From contig JAUSHE010000024.1 in assembly GCA_030648435.1 (NCBI GenBank), forward strand, positions 1 through 63,698: DNA of 63,698 nucleotides. Direction: 5' to 3'. Both the position numbers and the translations under genes were made by a program. This document shows positions 13,453 to 44,261 of the stretch, piece by piece. A model generated the notes under the pieces. It saw only the letters and a list, made by a program, of their open reading frames with translations, searched no databases and was not told the DNA's origin. The DNA is from Candidatus Daviesbacteria bacterium. Its GTDB lineage: Bacteria > Patescibacteriota > Microgenomatia > Daviesbacterales > UBA10151. Numbering within the stretch: position 1 is the first letter of the stretch; every line of letters starts with the position of its first letter.

Positions 13453-14475
13453 TTAAGTTACGAGTGCAAGGTTTGGATCAGCTTGAAGAGACAAAGGATT
13501 TTTAAGGGCTTTTTGGAAAAAGGCTGCAGAGGCTATCATGGCTCCGTTATCTGTACAAAGTTCCGGTGGTGGTACAAAGAGTCTGATAGCTGAAGACTGA
13601 CAGCTGACAGCTAATTCTGAAACCAGTTTCTGATTGGCGGCCACTCCGCCGGCGACTATTAAGTTTTTAACCTGATATTTTTCAACCGCTTGAATACTTT
13701 TTTTAACCAGAACATCAACAATAGCTTGTTGAATTGAAGCAGCAAGGTCAGCGACCTTACTTTTATCTGTTATATTAGCTACTGCTGTTTTTAAACCTGA
13801 AAAAGAGAAGTCAAAATCTTTGGAATTTATCATTGGTCTGGGTAATTTAAAAGCTTTTGGGTTACCCTCTTGTGCTAGTTTGGAAATAATAGGACCACCA
13901 GGGTAGGGCAGTCCCAGGAGCCTGGCGCATTTATCAAAGCATTCTCCTGCCGCATCATCCCGGGTTCCGCCCAGATATTTATATTTACCATGATCTGTAA
14001 ACAGAACTAAATCCGTATGCCCACCGGAAACAAGCAGGCCAATACAAGGGAAGCTCGGTACACCTTCCAGGTGGGCTTTGACTCCTGGAAGGTGAGTGGG
14101 AGTAATCCAATTAGCATAAAAATGTCCAAGCAGGTGATTAACTGGGATTAGTGGTTTATTCCAGATTAATGCCAGGGTTTTGGCAGTTTCTACCCCCACT
14201 AAAAGTGAACCTATTAGTCCGGGTCCATAGGTGACTGCAATAGCGTCAATTTCCTGTTGCCTGTGGCCTGAAGCCTGTAAACTTTCTTCTATCACCGGAA
14301 TGATTGATTTTATCTGTTCCCGTGCCGCCTGTTCAGGAATTATCCCTCCGTATTTAGCCTGCAGCAAGGCTGATGAAGCCACAATATTGGATAATATCGT
14401 TATTCGTTTATCGTTATTCGTCAAGATAGCGCAAGCTGTTTCATCGCAGGATGTTTCTATTCCCAGAATAATCAT
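13453..14475 (-). CDS. tsaD: tRNA N6-adenosine threonylcarbamoyltransferase TsaD
   Basis: GIETSCDETA, GPGLIGSLLVG, LLVSGGHT, CTDNGAMIA. Confidence 0.95.
   Translation of the reverse strand: MIILGIETSCDETACAILTNNDKRITILSNIVASSALLQAKYGGIIPEQAAREQIKSIIPVIEESLQASGHRQQEIDAIAVTYGPGLIGSLLVGVETAKTLALIWNKPLIPVNHLLGHFYANWITPTHLPGVKAHLEGVPSFPCIGLLVSGGHTDLVLFTDHGKYKYLGGTRDDAAGECFDKCARLLGLPYPGGPIISKLAQEGNPKAFKLPRPMINSKDFDFSFSGLKTAVANITDKSKVADLAASIQQAIVDVLVKKSIQAVEKYQVKNLIVAGGVAANQKLVSELAVSCQSSAIRLFVPPPELCTDNGAMIASAAFFQKALKNPLSLQADPNLALVT
13583..13617. repeat. heptamer patch (5 units) inside tsaD
   Basis: CTGATAG CTGAAGA CTGACAG CTGACAG CTAATTC. Confidence 0.6.
14061..14094. repeat. family-A 34-nt perfect hairpin element, copy 1 (inside tsaD)
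   Basis: CACCTTCCAGG TGGGCTTTGACT CCTGGAAGGTG; 11-bp stem, 12-nt loop. Confidence 0.9.
14395..14422. repeat. heptamer/14-mer patch inside the tsaD 5' region
   Basis: TATCGTT ATTCGTT TATCGTT ATTCGTC. Shares the 10-mer TCGTTTATCG with 18645-18654 and the reverse complement of 18752-18761. Confidence 0.6.
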
Positions 14476-22164: not shown

Positions 22165-23064
22165 GTTAATCAGTTGGACTTCGGGGACAAGGGTGATGTC
22201 GTATTTTTCTTTGACTTTCTCTGCGTAAGTTTTAGCCAAATCATAAAAATCTTTGGCAGTCCCATTATCTTTATTTATAAATAAGTTGCCATGAATAGGT
22301 GAAATTTCTATGCCATTTAAAGATTGCCCTTTGGCTCCTACCTCTTCCAGCAATGCTCCGGCAGAAAGTTTGCCGTAGACAATTTTTTCTTGGGGGATAT
22401 TATTCAAGATTTCTTCCGGAATTTCAGAAGCAATTAAATTTTTGAAAAAACTACCCGGGCATTTAATTCCCGGGGGATATCTAACAGCTCTTTTAGATAA
22501 TACTTCTTCTGCTTCTTTTTTGAGTATGTCAGGATCACCTGGTTCCAGTTGAAAAGTTACTTCTAAGATAGGTTGCTTGGATTGTTTAAAAATGCTGTTT
22601 CTGTAACCAAAAGCACATCCAGACTTGTTTAATTGATCAACGGATACAATATGATCGGAAATTGATTGGCCATAAGCTCCGGCATTGCCATAAACTGCCC
22701 CTCCAACAGTACCGGGAATTCCGGTTAGTTTTTGTAATCCGGAAAGTCCATTTTGAATGGTGTAGTCAACAAGGTTTTGTAAAAGAGTTCCACTCTTAAC
22801 GCACACCTCGAAGGAGTCAGGGCCCACCTTCGAGGTGGACAAATCACAAATCTCATTTTTTATAACTAAGCCTTCGAATCCGTCATCACTGATTAATAAA
22901 TTACTACCTCCACCGATAATTAAATACGGCATCTGTTGGGATTTGGCATATTCTAATGCTTCTATTAACTCTTCCTCGGAAGATACAATTACAAACTTTT
23001 TAGCCGGCCCGCCTATAGATAATGTAGTTATTGTTTTTAACAAATAATTATCTTCAAATTGCAT
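22144..23064 (-). CDS. murB: UDP-N-acetylenolpyruvoylglucosamine reductase
   Basis: FAD-binding IIGGGSNLLISD, GIPGTVGGAVYGNAGAYG, SFFKN. Confidence 0.9.
   Translation of the reverse strand: MQFEDNYLLKTITTLSIGGPAKKFVIVSSEEELIEALEYAKSQQMPYLIIGGGSNLLISDDGFEGLVIKNEICDLSTSKVGPDSFEVCVKSGTLLQNLVDYTIQNGLSGLQKLTGIPGTVGGAVYGNAGAYGQSISDHIVSVDQLNKSGCAFGYRNSIFKQSKQPILEVTFQLEPGDPDILKKEAEEVLSKRAVRYPPGIKCPGSFFKNLIASEIPEEILNNIPQEKIVYGKLSAGALLEEVGAKGQSLNGIEISPIHGNLFINKDNGTAKDFYDLAKTYAEKVKEKYDITLVPEVQLINLPWDLN
22804..22837. repeat. family-A hairpin element, copy 2 (inside murB, loop inverted)
   Basis: CACCTCGAAGG AGTCAGGGCCCA CCTTCGAGGTG. Confidence 0.9.
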
Positions 23065-26152: not shown

Positions 26153-26746
26153 ATGGCTAAGTTTCATTATCGGGAGTCTCCTACTGAAAAGCAAAAAAAT
26201 TCTTTCAAAAGATATCTGTCAGAAGACGAAGAATTAGTTTTAGTAACAGGTTTTTCAAGGGCTTATATCCGGTCTAAATTTTTATTCAATGTTTTATTCC
26301 CGGGAATGTTATTTTTAGCATTAGGTTTGGGAGCAGGATGGTTTTTTAATTTGGATAAATTTCTAAGTCTAGGTTTAGGAATGACCGGAATGTTTTTGGT
26401 GGCGCTTGTGAGGACTCTGCATGCATATCATGCTAACAGATATTTATTAACAACCAGAAGAGTGGTGATTAAAAAAGGAGTTTTTGGAGTTAAACTAACA
26501 GCTGCACTGTTTGATAAAATTACCCATCTGGAAGTTGATCAGGGGATTGTCGACCGGCTACTTTTGCATCACGGGACTATTATTGTGAATACAGCGGGCC
26601 TGAATAAAGGGGAAATAGTGCTTAAATTTGTAGATTATCCTTTGGAACTTAAAAACTTACTGGAAAGATTGATCAATCGAGAAAGAGAGCAATTTGGACT
26701 TCGGGGGGCTACTTTAACAGAAGTTGAAGGAGAGATCATAGCTTAG
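26153..26746 (+). CDS. bacterial PH-domain (YdbS/YdbT-like) membrane protein
   Basis: Two TM helices followed by the bPH_2-like RVVIKKGVFGVKLTAALFDKITHLEVDQG. Confidence 0.55.
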   Translation: MAKFHYRESPTEKQKNSFKRYLSEDEELVLVTGFSRAYIRSKFLFNVLFPGMLFLALGLGAGWFFNLDKFLSLGLGMTGMFLVALVRTLHAYHANRYLLTTRRVVIKKGVFGVKLTAALFDKITHLEVDQGIVDRLLLHHGTIIVNTAGLNKGEIVLKFVDYPLELKNLLERLINREREQFGLRGATLTEVEGEIIA

Positions 26747-42896: not shown

Positions 42897-43526
42897 ATGC
42901 AAAAGGGTACTGCCCAACTTTTATTGCTTCTTACAGTAGTGCTTCTTCTTGGGGTAGGTGTATATTTTTACAAGACTTCAAAAGAAAATGATTTACAAAC
43001 TGCGAAATTAACTGTCCAAAAACCATCAGAATTTATTGACTATGTAAATAAAGATTTTGGCTTTGAATTTAAGTATTCAAAGGAGTTGCAAGTGAAGGTT
43101 GATACAGAAGAAGAATTCAATAAACGGAGTAATGGGAATTTTAGGAAGAATTTTACAGGTTATGTAGGTTATGAACCGGGGCAGGTTTTAGGGGCAGTGG
43201 CAGTTTTAGACCAAAGCGGCTCTTTTGATAATAATCCTTTTTCTGTCTGGGTATTTGATAACCCTGATGGTTTAACAGTTAATGGTTGGTTTGATAAATA
43301 TTGGTATTACCCATTTTTATGGGGAGTATTTGACTATTTGTCAAAAAGTCACATTACTCCTGATACAGAAGCTACAATTAGCGGACAACTAACAAAATAT
43401 AAAATTGTTTCCTACCAACTAAGTTCCCCAAAATATCTTTATTTATCAAAAGAGAAGAAGATGTATTTATTTAGAGTTATCGGAGAGACCGGGGACAAAA
43501 TTTTATCCGGCTTTAAATTTCTATAA
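42897..43526 (+). CDS. hypothetical exported protein
   Basis: Signal/TM AQLLLLLTVVLLLGVGVYF. Aromatic-rich body. Confidence 0.4.
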   Translation: MQKGTAQLLLLLTVVLLLGVGVYFYKTSKENDLQTAKLTVQKPSEFIDYVNKDFGFEFKYSKELQVKVDTEEEFNKRSNGNFRKNFTGYVGYEPGQVLGAVAVLDQSGSFDNNPFSVWVFDNPDGLTVNGWFDKYWYYPFLWGVFDYLSKSHITPDTEATISGQLTKYKIVSYQLSSPKYLYLSKEKKMYLFRVIGETGDKILSGFKFL

Positions 43527-44261
43527 TAAATAAATATCTACAAATCTTGCGCTCCAGCCGGCGGTCTTGGCATCTTCAAAGCCCAGATCAATGATATTTC
43601 CTTTAATTGCTCCGCCAGTATCTCCGGCAATAGCCATGCCATATCCGGGTACATAAAGTTTGGTTCTATATTTAATAACTTTTGGATCAACAGCTATCAC
43701 ACCTTTGCCTTGTCTCATGCCGATCGAAGTCCACTCATCGCAGCCGGGACAGCGTGAATCATAGTGGGTGGCATAAACCCGCATCTTCTTCCAGTATTTA
43801 ATCTCGCCGTCAGGGGTTTGTAGGGTTTTCCAGACAATTTTTGTACCCCGTAAAATCTTTTTATCTTGGGCCGGAGTTGTTTCAACAGAAATAAGTTCTC
43901 TGGAATATTCTTCACCTTGGCTCACCTCGGAGGTGGGCTTTGACTCCTCCGAGGTGGTTGCCGGTTTGGAGTAGGTTATTTTATAAATCTTAATTTTTTT
44001 GCCGTCTGTTCCTTCTTCCAAGACTTTTTCTTCTCCTGCTTCTACCTCCGGATCATCCTGATAAATTGTTTTTCTTGGTAAACTTTCTATTTCTTCCCGG
44101 AGTTTTTCGGTAAACGAGGACTCGGTAGTAATAGGTTGGTTAATAGGTAATGTTTCTGTTGGAGAAAGCGTGGAATCACCTAAAACAGTAGGAGCCTGAA
44201 AGATACTTTTGGCAAAGAAAGTAAGCGCTATTATTAAGATAATCCCAAGATATTTTTCCAT
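43521..44261 (-). CDS. G5 + 3D-domain (MltA/RlpA-like barrel) cell-wall protein
   Basis: G5-like EEGTDGKKIKIYKITY. 3D-domain ATHYDSRCPGC...IAVDPKVIKYRTKLYVPGYGMAIAGDTGGAIKG. Confidence 0.7.
   Translation of the reverse strand: MEKYLGIILIIALTFFAKSIFQAPTVLGDSTLSPTETLPINQPITTESSFTEKLREEIESLPRKTIYQDDPEVEAGEEKVLEEGTDGKKIKIYKITYSKPATTSEESKPTSEVSQGEEYSRELISVETTPAQDKKILRGTKIVWKTLQTPDGEIKYWKKMRVYATHYDSRCPGCDEWTSIGMRQGKGVIAVDPKVIKYRTKLYVPGYGMAIAGDTGGAIKGNIIDLGFEDAKTAGWSARFVDIYLL
43923..43956. repeat. family-A hairpin element, copy 3 (inside the 3D-domain gene)
   Basis: CACCTCGGAGG TGGGCTTTGACT CCTCCGAGGTG. Confidence 0.9.

What the first reader, a model, noticed from the sequence alone, without database searches (positions are those of the whole stretch)
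43923..43956. Family-A hairpin element inside the G5/3D-domain gene (copy 3)
CACCTCGGAGG-TGGGCTTTGACT-CCTCCGAGGTG has a loop identical to copy 1. The stem differs at 3 positions per arm, all compensated. It is translated as TTSEESKPTSEVSQ in a low-complexity linker between the G5-like and 3D domains, in a different reading frame from copy 1.
Basis: seen in the sequence. Interest (0 to 1): 0.65.

Follow-up and report, generated by a model that had tools for sequence, protein, structure and literature searches.

The report
Translated mini-REPIN hairpin in G5 domain
The 34-base hairpin is one copy of a small selfish DNA repeat (a REP doublet linked to a RAYT-type tyrosine transposase) that in these tiny-genome Daviesbacteria sits in frame inside ordinary genes and is translated as a floppy surface loop; this is a known kind of element in a lineage where the papers I searched do not describe it.

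Summary
The sequence is as described: a perfect 11-bp stem and a 12-nt loop at 43923-43956. The loop is identical to copy 1, and three stem positions per arm differ and are compensated. It is translated as TTSEESKPTSEVSQ.

One detail is wrong. The insert is not in a linker between domains. It sits at the tip of a beta-hairpin inside the G5 domain.

The 34-mer is an inverted doublet of a 13-nt mini-palindrome, CACCT-NNN-AGGTG. This genome has 16 such doublets and 15 solo units. I counted 146 distinct copies in the sequence I held. A scan of 185,579 species genomes found the commonest form only in records titled Daviesbacteria, Microgenomates or Patescibacteria group, or in generically labelled bins.

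The same unit brackets a Y1/HUH transposase gene in 28 of 30 loci examined. The model of that protein best matches the E. coli REP-associated transposase (4ER8).

Orientation and frame use fit simple filtering against stop codons, not an RNA function.

At this site 9 orthologues carry the hairpin and 13 do not. The loop is flipped between species, and the arms stay complementary. A short patch around the insert shows recombination between species.

Verdict: a REPIN/RAYT-type element, intragenic and translated, and a new member of a known kind.

The parts
43923..43956 (-). 34-nt hairpin, a mini-REPIN. On the coding (-) strand it reads CACCTCGGAGG AGTCAAAGCCCA CCTCCGAGGTG: an 11-bp perfect stem with a 12-nt loop.
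43944..43956 (-). REP-like unit 1 of the doublet, CACCT-CGG-AGGaG. It departs from the palindrome CACCT-NNN-AGGTG at one position.
   Evidence: Read directly from the sequence. Unit defined from solo copies and the transposase flanks.
43936..43943 (-). 8-nt spacer TCAAAGCC between the two units. It is the core of the 12-nt 'loop'.
   Evidence: The spacer varies between copies (AGTCAGGGCCCA, AGCCAGGGCTCA and others).
43923..43935 (-). REP-like unit 2, CACCT-CCG-AGGTG. It is a perfect 5-bp mini-palindrome whose central triplet is inverted relative to unit 1.
   Evidence: There are 15 solo units of this form elsewhere in the genome against 0.35 expected from base composition.
43917..43964 (-). 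The 48 nt (CCGGCAAC + hairpin + AGCCAA on the coding strand) that replace a single codon (GAY, Asp) of orthologues with an empty site. Net gain is 15 codons.
   Evidence: DNA comparison of 22 orthologues.
43521..44261 (-). Host gene: a 246-aa protein with an N-terminal membrane anchor or signal, a G5 domain and a 3D domain. It is probably a secreted cell-wall-acting protein.
43839..44099 (-). G5 domain (residues 55-141). The hairpin insert lies inside it, at the K-D-G turn between two strands.
   Evidence: Pfam PF07501, 48 bits. AlphaFold strands 87-99 and 117-129 with a disordered loop between them.
43524..43700 (-). 3D domain (residues 188-246).
   Evidence: Pfam PF06725, 54 bits.
14061..14094 (-). 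Family copy 1 (TCC sub-type) inside tsaD, read as HLPGVKAHLEG.
22804..22837 (+). Family copy 2 (CGA sub-type, loop AGTCAGGGCCCA on the + strand) inside murB, which is on the - strand. It is therefore read in the opposite orientation, as TSKVGPDSFEV.
57897..57909 (.). Solo 13-nt unit CACCTCCGAGGTG of the same family.

Best explanation
**What it is (shown).** The hairpin is a miniature REPIN: two inverted copies of a 13-nt REP-like palindrome (CACCT-NNN-AGGTG) separated by 8 nt. It belongs to a repeat family of Candidatus Daviesbacteria and other Microgenomates. The unit of this family brackets a RAYT-type Y1/HUH tyrosine transposase gene.

**How it spreads (inferred).** That enzyme, acting on single-stranded DNA hairpins, is what spreads and possibly maintains the family.

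**Why it sits in genes.** These genomes have almost no intergenic space, so copies land in genes. Only copies that keep the frame open and fall in tolerant surface loops survive. Here the insert sits at the tip of a beta-hairpin inside the G5 domain of a G5-3D cell-wall protein. It is most likely translated as a disordered loop of about 15 residues with no function of its own.

**History of this copy.**
- It is an old allele rather than a recent jump in this genome. The same site is filled in 9 of 22 orthologues from three genera.
- Its CGG sub-type differs from the GGA/TCC sub-type that flanks this genome's own transposase gene.
- The filled allele appears to move between species by short-patch homologous recombination.
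- The loop has been inverted in place in some lineages.

**Stem maintenance (inferred).** The arms stay complementary. The most likely cause is a DNA-level process, either palindrome correction by template switching or conversion from other copies. Selection on an RNA is less likely.
For: **Family and anatomy**
- The genome has 16 doublets, 15 solo units against 0.35 expected, and doublets with longer spacers.
- I found 146 distinct copies in 1.9 Mb of related DNA, and 133 of them have perfect stems.
- The exact major form occurs in 77 stretches among 185,579 species genomes. Their titles are Daviesbacteria, Curtissbacteria, Gottesmanbacteria, Microgenomates or Patescibacteria group, or generic bin labels.
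- In the 61 genomes searched (the window's own plus 60 relatives), the family occurs in 22, all in the window's own taxonomic family, and in none of the 24 genomes from other families.

**Transposase link**
- G000 has three Y1_Tnp genes. Only the one on contig C2 is flanked by family-A units: CCACCCTCCAGGTGG lies about 56 nt before the start, and CCACCTGGAAGGTGG about 30 nt after the stop.
- 28 of 30 homologous loci from many genera have such a unit on both sides. In the closest orthologues the unit is preceded by (G/C)TA(A/G)TC.
- The protein scores 34 bits on Pfam Y1_Tnp (cut-off 23).
- All 30 homologues keep H90, H92 and Y150, which I take to be the HUH motif and the catalytic tyrosine.
- The AlphaFold model has pLDDT 91.8. 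Its best PDB match is 4ER8, the REP-associated tyrosine transposase bound to a REP hairpin (E 5e-7).
- Within the genus, 14 of 15 genomes with at least 2 homologues have doublets. None of the 3 genomes with 0 or 1 homologue has any (Fisher p about 0.005, my arithmetic).
- G003 has no homologue and carries a decayed copy at this very site.

**Translation filter**
- Of 78 copies with an assigned coding strand, 61 are sense and 17 antisense.
- In the T-S-E frame, which is open in both orientations, the split is 17 to 15.
- The antisense frame 0 contains TGA and is used only once, by a copy whose loop variant lacks it.

**Position in the protein:**

**History of the site**
- Filled and empty alleles, flipped loops, compensated arm changes and nested inserts are seen.
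- Monophyly of the filled alleles is rejected (AU p 0.004).
- G013 is 88-100% identical to the empty G008 allele through most of the gene's central part (columns about 30-270 and 360-510 of 711). From about -31 to +45 nt around the site it matches filled alleles instead.
- A maximum chi-square scan, run blind to the site, places the best donor-type segment on the site: p 0.003-0.004 for G013 and 0.03 for G012.
Against: - No enzymology, and no read-level evidence of movement or excision.
- The transposase scores only 43 bits on NCBIfam's RAYT model against a cut-off of 80. It has no sequence-level PDB hit.
- The classic GTAG tag is only approximately present. In dispersed doublets it is reduced to RRTY.
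- Many genomes with homologous transposases have no doublet of this exact form (G019, G037).
- The recombination signal is not significant for G000 itself (p 0.23).
- At the murB site different genomes carry different sub-types. Re-insertion or overwriting at hot spots therefore also occurs and could contribute at the G5 site.
- Transition mismatches lean towards G.U on the mRNA strand (9 against 4). An RNA-level constraint is not fully excluded.
Confidence: 0.78

Rival explanations
1. The hairpin is a functional RNA structure in the mRNA, for example a pause, stability or regulatory element. The stem would be kept by selection on RNA pairing.
For: - Stems co-vary between paralogues and between orthologues.
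- 91% of 146 copies have perfect stems.
- The RNA fold is strong, -28 kcal/mol with z -5.2.
- Transition mismatches favour G.U on the mRNA strand, 9 against 4.
Against: - In the one frame that is open both ways, the two orientations are equally common, 17 to 15.
- At this very site the loop is flipped between species.
- 13 of 22 orthologues do without the hairpin.
- The same element sits in unrelated genes, in loops of no common position.
- There is no Rfam match and no terminator.
- The 9-to-4 split is not significant, and a strand-biased C-to-T mutation pressure would give the same lean.
Confidence: 0.07
2. The element is mobilised by something other than the flanked Y1 enzyme, such as another transposase or purely replication or recombination processes. 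The association with the Y1 gene would be incidental or historical.
For: - Several genomes with Y1 homologues lack this doublet form.
- Spread of this copy by homologous recombination needs no transposase.
- The NCBIfam RAYT score is below the cut-off.
Against: - 28 of 30 Y1 loci are bracketed by the unit at conserved distances.
- The three genus members with 0 or 1 homologue have no intact doublets.
- The protein model best matches a REP-bound RAYT.
Confidence: 0.1
3. The inserted peptide is a selected protein module, a functional loop or linker of the G5-3D protein. The hairpin would be a by-product of its coding sequence.
For: - The insert is kept in frame in 9 orthologues.
- It is hydrophilic, T/S/E/K/P-rich.
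Against: - The same DNA is read in three frames and both orientations in other genes, giving unrelated peptides: HLEGVKAHLPG, TSEESKPTSEV, PPGRSQSPPSR, TSEVGFDSSEV.
- At this site, orthologues encode different peptides from the flipped loop.
- The loop is predicted to be disordered.
- 13 orthologues lack the insert.
Confidence: 0.03
4. The hairpin is a chance or locally generated palindrome, created de novo by template switching and unrelated to a repeat family.
For: Template switching can create perfect inverted repeats (established knowledge; not tested here).
Against: The arms and the 12-nt loop are identical or nearly so in more than 140 copies across many genomes. The expected chance count is about 0.015 per window.
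Confidence: 0.01

Closest known systems
REPINs (REP doublets forming hairpins) with RAYT transposases; Bertels and Rainey 2011 (PMC3116915), E. coli TnpA_REP structure 4ER8
   Same: - A short palindromic unit occurs as singlets and as inverted doublets that fold into a longer hairpin.
- The unit flanks a Y1/HUH transposase gene, and there is one cognate gene in this genome.
- The family is confined to one lineage.
- The protein model is closest to 4ER8.
   Different: - The doublet is only 34 nt, made of 13-nt units and an 8-nt spacer. This is much smaller than the REPINs I know of (from memory, not checked here).
- About 9 in 10 copies lie inside genes and are translated.
- The 5' tag is (G/C)TA(A/G)TC next to the transposase gene and only RRTY at dispersed copies.
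- The protein has a C-terminal extension of about 70 residues and falls below NCBIfam's RAYT cut-off.
Intragenic GTAG/CGTC-tagged REPs (Di Nocera et al. 2013, PMC3733652), including Rickettsia RPE-4/RPE-6 and Opitutus terrae
   Same: - REP singlets and dimers are inserted in frame inside known genes, often repeatedly in the same gene families.
- They are interpreted as tolerated selfish insertions.
   Different: - In those species intragenic copies are the minority of a mainly intergenic population. Here they are the rule.
- The dimers there encode 20-30 residues; here they encode 11-15.
- That paper does not report orthologous-site comparison showing loop flips and inter-species patch recombination.
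Rickettsia palindromic elements (RPE-1 type)
   Same: Palindromic repeats inserted in frame in protein genes and expressed as part of the protein.
   Different: RPE-1 elements are roughly 100-150 bp, have no associated transposase gene in the genome, and are unrelated in sequence (from my own knowledge).
Quasi-palindrome correction and hairpin-loop inversion by intramolecular template switching (established from E. coli mutagenesis and plastid hairpins; my own knowledge)
   Same: This process explains arms that change in step and loops that flip while the flanks stay put, as seen among the 9 orthologous copies.
   Different: It is a mutational process, not an element family. It is inferred here, not shown.

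Membership tests
REP/REPIN-RAYT system | A short palindromic unit repeated many times in the genome, as singlets and doublets. | tested here: met
   16 doublets and 15 solo units against 0.35 expected. 146 distinct copies in related DNA.
REP/REPIN-RAYT system | A REPIN is two REP units in inverted orientation that fold into one hairpin. | tested here: met
   [CACCTCGGAGGaG] TCAAAGCC [CACCTCCGAGGTG] with a perfect 11-bp stem.
REP/REPIN-RAYT system | The same unit flanks a Y1/HUH transposase gene (a REPtron). | tested here: met
   The G000 C2 gene is flanked on both sides. 28 of 30 homologous loci are likewise flanked.
REP/REPIN-RAYT system | The enzyme belongs to the RAYT branch of Y1 transposases, with an HUH motif and a catalytic Tyr. 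| tested here: inconclusive
   - Pfam Y1_Tnp scores 34 bits, above the cut-off.
- H90, H92 and Y150 are invariant in 30 homologues.
- The best fold match is 4ER8.
- NCBIfam NF047646 scores only 43 bits against a cut-off of 80, and phmmer finds no PDB hit.
REP/REPIN-RAYT system | A conserved 5' GTAG tetranucleotide next to the stem. | tested here: inconclusive
   - Next to the transposase gene the flanks read GTAGTC, CTAGTC or GTAATC before CACC.
- Dispersed doublets keep only RRTY at -4 to -1.
- An RRYY tetranucleotide lies on the loop-sense side in 32 of 87 copies, against a background frequency of 6.7%.
REP/REPIN-RAYT system | The repeats are extragenic. | tested here: not met
   15 of 16 copies in G000 and about 78 of 89 rows in 17 genomes lie inside long open ORFs. 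Intragenic REPs are, however, already on record (PMC3733652).
REP/REPIN-RAYT system | The repeat family co-occurs with its transposase. | tested here: met
   Within the genus, 14 of 15 genomes with at least 2 homologues have doublets, and 0 of 3 with 0 or 1 homologue do. The test is loose because paralogues serving other palindrome families are counted too.
REP/REPIN-RAYT system | The enzyme binds and cleaves the repeat, or mobilises it. | not testable with these tools
   This needs biochemistry or population read data.
Rickettsia palindromic elements (RPE-1) | A palindromic repeat of about 100-150 bp inserted in frame, with no transposase. | tested here: not met
   In-frame insertion is met. 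Size (34 nt) and the presence of a cognate Y1 gene do not fit.
Curated structured RNA family (Rfam) | A match to a covariance model. | tested here: not met
   No match at E up to 1 in 43700-44200.

The most novel reading that the evidence does not exclude
In Daviesbacteria and related Microgenomates, REP hairpins might live as heritable alleles of protein loops, not only as parasites. On this reading, a site that has acquired a hairpin becomes a landing pad. The hairpin-bearing patch of about 50-130 nt is passed between species by homologous recombination. The palindrome is kept perfect, and occasionally flipped or swapped for another sub-type, by the RAYT enzyme or by replication template switching. 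The system would then continuously generate length and sequence variation in surface loops of essential and cell-envelope proteins.
Probability: 0.25. Interest if true: 0.6.

Novelty: new member of a known kind. Interest (0 to 1): 0.38.

Why it matters
**Annotation.** It explains a recurrent 11-15 residue 'low-complexity' insert in Daviesbacteria proteins. It also warns that such inserts are selfish DNA and not domain features.

**Biology.**
- A REP/RAYT system can persist in a genome of under 1 Mb with almost no intergenic space, by living inside protein loops.
- The orthologous series at this site has filled and empty alleles, flipped loops, arms that change in step, nested inserts, and a decayed copy in a genome without the transposase. 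It is a compact natural data set for asking how palindromes are maintained and exchanged.

**Limits.** It does not open a new category. Intragenic REPs and RAYTs are published, and this scan already holds many notes on the same phenomenon.

Tried and rejected
- **Strand-specific RNA or transcription-linked function.** All 14 copies in G000 whose coding strand and loop orientation could both be assigned, bar one, looked 'sense'. With 78 copies the bias is accounted for by a TGA in one antisense frame, and the frame open both ways is split 17 to 15.
- **G.U against A.C mismatches as a test of RNA selection.** The count is 9 against 4, not significant. The first four cases I saw were all G.U, which was misleading.
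- **CCGGCAA 5' of the hairpin as part of the mobile unit.** It recurs in three copies, but in GAPDH it encodes the conserved SAPAK motif. Its offsets and frames also differ, so I treat it as coincidence.
- **A single origin of filled alleles on the gene tree.** Rejected (AU p 0.004). The concatenated helicase + G5 tree was too poorly resolved to help.
- **A simple filled-versus-empty identity scan.** It gave only a small local excess, +0.07 in the first 45 nt. The pairwise backbone/donor analysis was more informative.
- **Terminator and Rfam checks.** Both negative.
- **phmmer against PDB for the transposase.** Negative.
- **The look-up of sequencing runs.** Closed, so no read-level or RNA evidence could be obtained.
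- **My degenerate-doublet regex.** It was one base too long and missed known copies. One search replaced it.

Full report
**1. The observation**

Window 43923-43956 reads CACCTCGGAGG TGGGCTTTGACT CCTCCGAGGTG. This is a perfect 11-bp stem with a 12-nt loop.
- The loop has only two exact matches in the window, here and at 14072 in copy 1.
- The arms differ from copy 1 (CACCTTCCAGG) at positions 6-8, and each change is mirrored in the other arm.
- The - strand ORF 43521-44261 reads through the hairpin as ...KPATTSEESKPTSEVSQGEE.... Copy 1 is read in another frame, as HLPGVKAHLEGV.
- As single-stranded DNA the region folds at -13.7 to -15 kcal/mol, and as RNA at -28 to -30 kcal/mol. None of 200 shuffles folds as well.
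- A perfect 11-bp inverted repeat at fixed spacing is expected about 0.015 times per window (my arithmetic).

**2. The family**

- The genome is 784 kb in 48 contigs with 38% G+C. It holds 16 copies of CACCT-NNN-AGG / 12 nt / CCT-NNN-AGGTG.
- The middle triplet is TCC, GGA, CGA, CCG or CGG; one further copy (C37) also changes the AGG that follows (CGG-GGG). It is always complementary between the arms.
- The loop is mostly AGTCAAAGCCCA (as read on the strand I call sense). Variants include AGTCAGGGCCCA and AGCCAGGGCTCA.
- The same pattern occurs in 22 of 61 genomes searched (the window's own plus 60 relatives). All 22 are in the window's own taxonomic family, and none of the 24 genomes from other families of the class has it.
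- An exact-pattern scan of one genome per 185,579 species found 77 stretches. All their titles read Candidatus Daviesbacteria, Curtissbacteria, Gottesmanbacteria, Microgenomates or 'Patescibacteria group', or carry generic labels.

**3. Anatomy**

The 34-mer is an inverted doublet of a 13-nt mini-palindrome. On the coding strand it reads [CACCT-CGG-AGGaG] TCAAAGCC [CACCT-CCG-AGGTG].
- Solo units CACCT-NNN-AGGTG occur 15 more times in the genome, against 0.35 expected from composition. Doublets with 15-17-nt spacers also exist.
A doublet built from one unit is complementary by construction.

**4. Link to a transposase**

- The genome has three Y1_Tnp (PF01797) genes. Only the one at C2:12407-13084 is bracketed by family-A units. 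CCACCCTCCAGGTGG lies about 56 nt before the start and CCACCTGGAAGGTGG about 30 nt after the stop, with the middle triplet inverted.
- Among 30 loci holding homologues of this gene, from many genera and a few other families, 28 have a CACC-N5-GGTG unit on both sides at similar distances. In the closest orthologues the unit is preceded by (G/C)TA(A/G)TC.
- The protein passes Pfam's cut-off. It scores 43 bits on NCBIfam's RAYT model, below the cut-off of 80. It has no PDB hit by sequence.
- All 30 homologues keep H90, H92 and Y150, which I take to be the HUH motif and the catalytic tyrosine.
- The model has pLDDT 91.8. Its best structural match is 4ER8, the E. coli REP-associated tyrosine transposase bound to a REP hairpin. 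IS608 and ISDra2 TnpA follow.
- Within the genus, 14 of 15 genomes with at least two homologues have doublets, and none of the three with 0 or 1 does.
- G003 has no homologue and carries a decayed copy at the G5 site, CACACCGGGGG...CCCCTGGTGTG.

**5. Coding context**

I fetched the surroundings of 71 copies from 16 relatives and added the copies of G000.
- Of 78 copies with an assignable coding strand, 61 are sense: 33 read as H-L-x-G-V-K-A-H-L-x-G, 17 as T-S-E-E-S-K-P-T-S-E-V, and 11 as P-x-R-S-Q-S-P-P. The other 17 are antisense, 15 of them in the T-S-E frame.
- The antisense strand has TGA in frame 0. In the frame that is open both ways the split is 17 to 15.
- The orientation bias is therefore what purifying selection against stop codons would produce. 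It does not argue for a strand-specific RNA role.
- Oriented by the loop, the four bases 5' of the element are R-R-T-Y. T is at -2 in 51 of 87 copies, G is at -1 in only 1, and the first 3' base is almost never C.
- An RRYY tetranucleotide lies on that side in 32 of 87 copies and on the far side in 9, against a background of 6.7%.

**6. Host protein**

- Pfam finds G5 at residues 55-141 and 3D at 188-246.
- The insert, at residues about 99-116, is inside the G5 match. Orthologues without it read ...KITY-SKDG-EEY....
- In the AlphaFold model (22-sequence alignment, mean pLDDT 75), strands 87-99 and 117-129 are confident. Residues 104-113 between them have pLDDT below 50.
- The insert is therefore the tip of a beta-hairpin in the G5 domain, not an inter-domain linker.

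**7. The orthologous series**

Orthologues were found in 22 relatives, next to the same helicase gene in the 19 whose locus held enough upstream sequence to judge. The 22 alleles compared below are the window's own plus 21 of these.
- Thirteen have the empty site and nine are filled: G000, G018, G001, G013, G012, G003 and G007, plus G024 and G021 from two other genera.
- In G000, 48 nt replace one codon.
- Among the filled alleles the arms differ but remain complementary in 7 of 9. The forms are CACCTCGGAGG, CACCTCGGGGG, CACCTCCGAGG, CACCCCGGGGG and CACCTCGGGAG.
- The loop is sense in G000, G001 and G003, and flipped in G018, G024, G021, G012 and G007.
- G007 and G013 carry extra DNA inside the loop. 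G003 has an extra truncated unit.
- In G000 the RRYY tag (GGCT) lies on the side opposite to its loop orientation. It lies on the same side as in the flipped-loop orthologues G018 (GGTC), G013 (GATC) and G024 (GGCT). This fits an in-place loop inversion in the G000 lineage.

**8. History of the site**

- On a tree of the gene without the insert columns, filled and empty alleles alternate as sisters: G000-G010, G018-G016, G012-G002 and G013-G008. Nine changes are needed and at least three are forced by well-supported branches. The AU test rejects one clade of filled alleles (p 0.004).
- The filled alleles nevertheless share similar flanks.
- G013 is 88-100% identical to the empty G008 allele in 60-nt windows through most of the central part of the gene (columns about 30-270 and 360-510 of 711). 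In the windows spanning the site its best matches are filled alleles. The differences there include third-codon positions.
- A maximum chi-square scan, blind to the site, places the best donor-type segment at -31 to +11 or +45 for G013 (p 0.003-0.004) and at -70 to +62 for G012 (p 0.03).
- For G000 and G018 the best segment adjoins the site but is not significant.
- The simplest reading is that a short patch carrying the hairpin has been exchanged between species by homologous recombination.
- At the tsaD site, G000, G012 and G007 keep the same TCC sub-type. At the murB site, different genomes carry different sub-types. The tsaD loop holds unrelated inserts in other genomes. Re-insertion or replacement at hot-spot loops therefore also happens.

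**9. How it most likely works**

Shown:
- The element is a REP-type doublet.
- Its unit brackets a RAYT-like gene.
- Copies sit in frame in protein loops.
- This copy is an old, exchanged allele with a flipped loop.

Inferred:
- The Y1 enzyme nicks and joins single-stranded hairpin DNA next to the RRTY/GTAG-like tag and so spreads the units.
- Insertions that close the frame or hit structured parts of a protein are lost.
- Perfect stems (133 of 146 copies) are kept by a DNA-level process, either template switching within the palindrome or conversion from other copies.

RNA-level selection is the main rival. It is weakened by the equal use of both orientations, by the loop flips, and by a non-significant split of 9 G.U against 4 A.C among mismatches. 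There is no Rfam match and no terminator.

**10. Comparison with what is known**

- REPINs and RAYTs are established (PMC3116915; 4ER8).
- Di Nocera et al. 2013 already described intragenic, in-frame GTAG and CGTC REPs, often as dimers. Examples are in Opitutus terrae and in Rickettsia conorii as RPE-4/6 (PMC3733652).
- I found no paper that combines RAYT or REPIN with CPR, Patescibacteria or Microgenomates among the listed results of a full-text search.
- What differs here is degree and lineage. The doublet is very small, about nine in ten copies are inside genes, and the host is a CPR bacterium.
- Earlier notes of this scan reach the same REP/RAYT reading for copy 1 and for other Daviesbacteria genomes. 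I used them as leads and re-derived the link from the sequence.

**11. Limits**

- Coding strands were assigned by longest spanning ORF, not by gene prediction.
- The co-occurrence test counts paralogues that may serve other palindrome families.
- The recombination inference rests on one gene of about 700 nt.

Noticed in passing
window 57897-57909; also G000 C21:1763: A solo family-A unit (CACCTCCGAGGTG in the window, CACCTCGGAGGTG on C21) sits within near-identical flanks (cctaggtgtagcttca[c/t]tcc ... gga) at two places in the genome. The window copy lies in the region another note of this scan describes as repeated 3' ends of the LD-carboxypeptidase gene.
   Followed up: no
G000 C12:22053-22793 and C25 (hit 26519-26746, - strand): Two further Y1_Tnp genes have other palindromes after their stop codons: CCTTGCAAGGCGTCCCCTTGCAG and GTTCCCACTTGACGAGTGGGAAGCTAGAGTGGGAAGC. 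The genome probably runs three transposase/palindrome pairs.
   Followed up: partly
tsaD orthologues, loci L136-L159; window gene 13453-14475: tsaD open frames range from 334 to 448 codons among relatives. At least four loops hold lineage-specific inserts of unrelated sequence, for example QLSAISYQLS...RRLTTES and long R/K/S-rich stretches. The loop that carries copy 1 is one of these hot spots.
   Followed up: partly
L030 (G007) and L014 (G013), G5 site: The hairpin loop itself has taken up extra DNA while the arms stayed perfectly complementary. G007 has 27 nt containing the small palindrome GACCGTCAGGTC, and G013 has 15 nt.
   Followed up: no
L029 (G003), G5 site: G003 has no detectable Y1 homologue. 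It carries a degenerate doublet (CACACCGGGGG / CCCCTGGTGTG, with one G.T) plus a truncated extra unit upstream. This may be decay after loss of the enzyme.
   Followed up: partly
murB orthologues, loci L166, L175, L180, L186: At one and the same murB site different genomes carry different sub-types and orientations. G000 and G006 have CGA with an antisense loop, G001 has GGG sense, and G014 has CGGGG sense. This points to replacement or independent insertion at a hot spot.
   Followed up: partly
Genome contigs records such as CAZKCV010000001.1 and CAZFZP010000003.1 (L202, L224): Several third-party (TPA) bins titled 'uncultured Gammaproteobacteria' carry the element.
   Followed up: no
window 43913-43966: In this copy the flanks extend the palindrome imperfectly: ACCGGC ... 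GCC..GGT pair outside the 34-mer in both the DNA and RNA folds. I could not tell whether this is chance or part of the original inserted piece.
   Followed up: no
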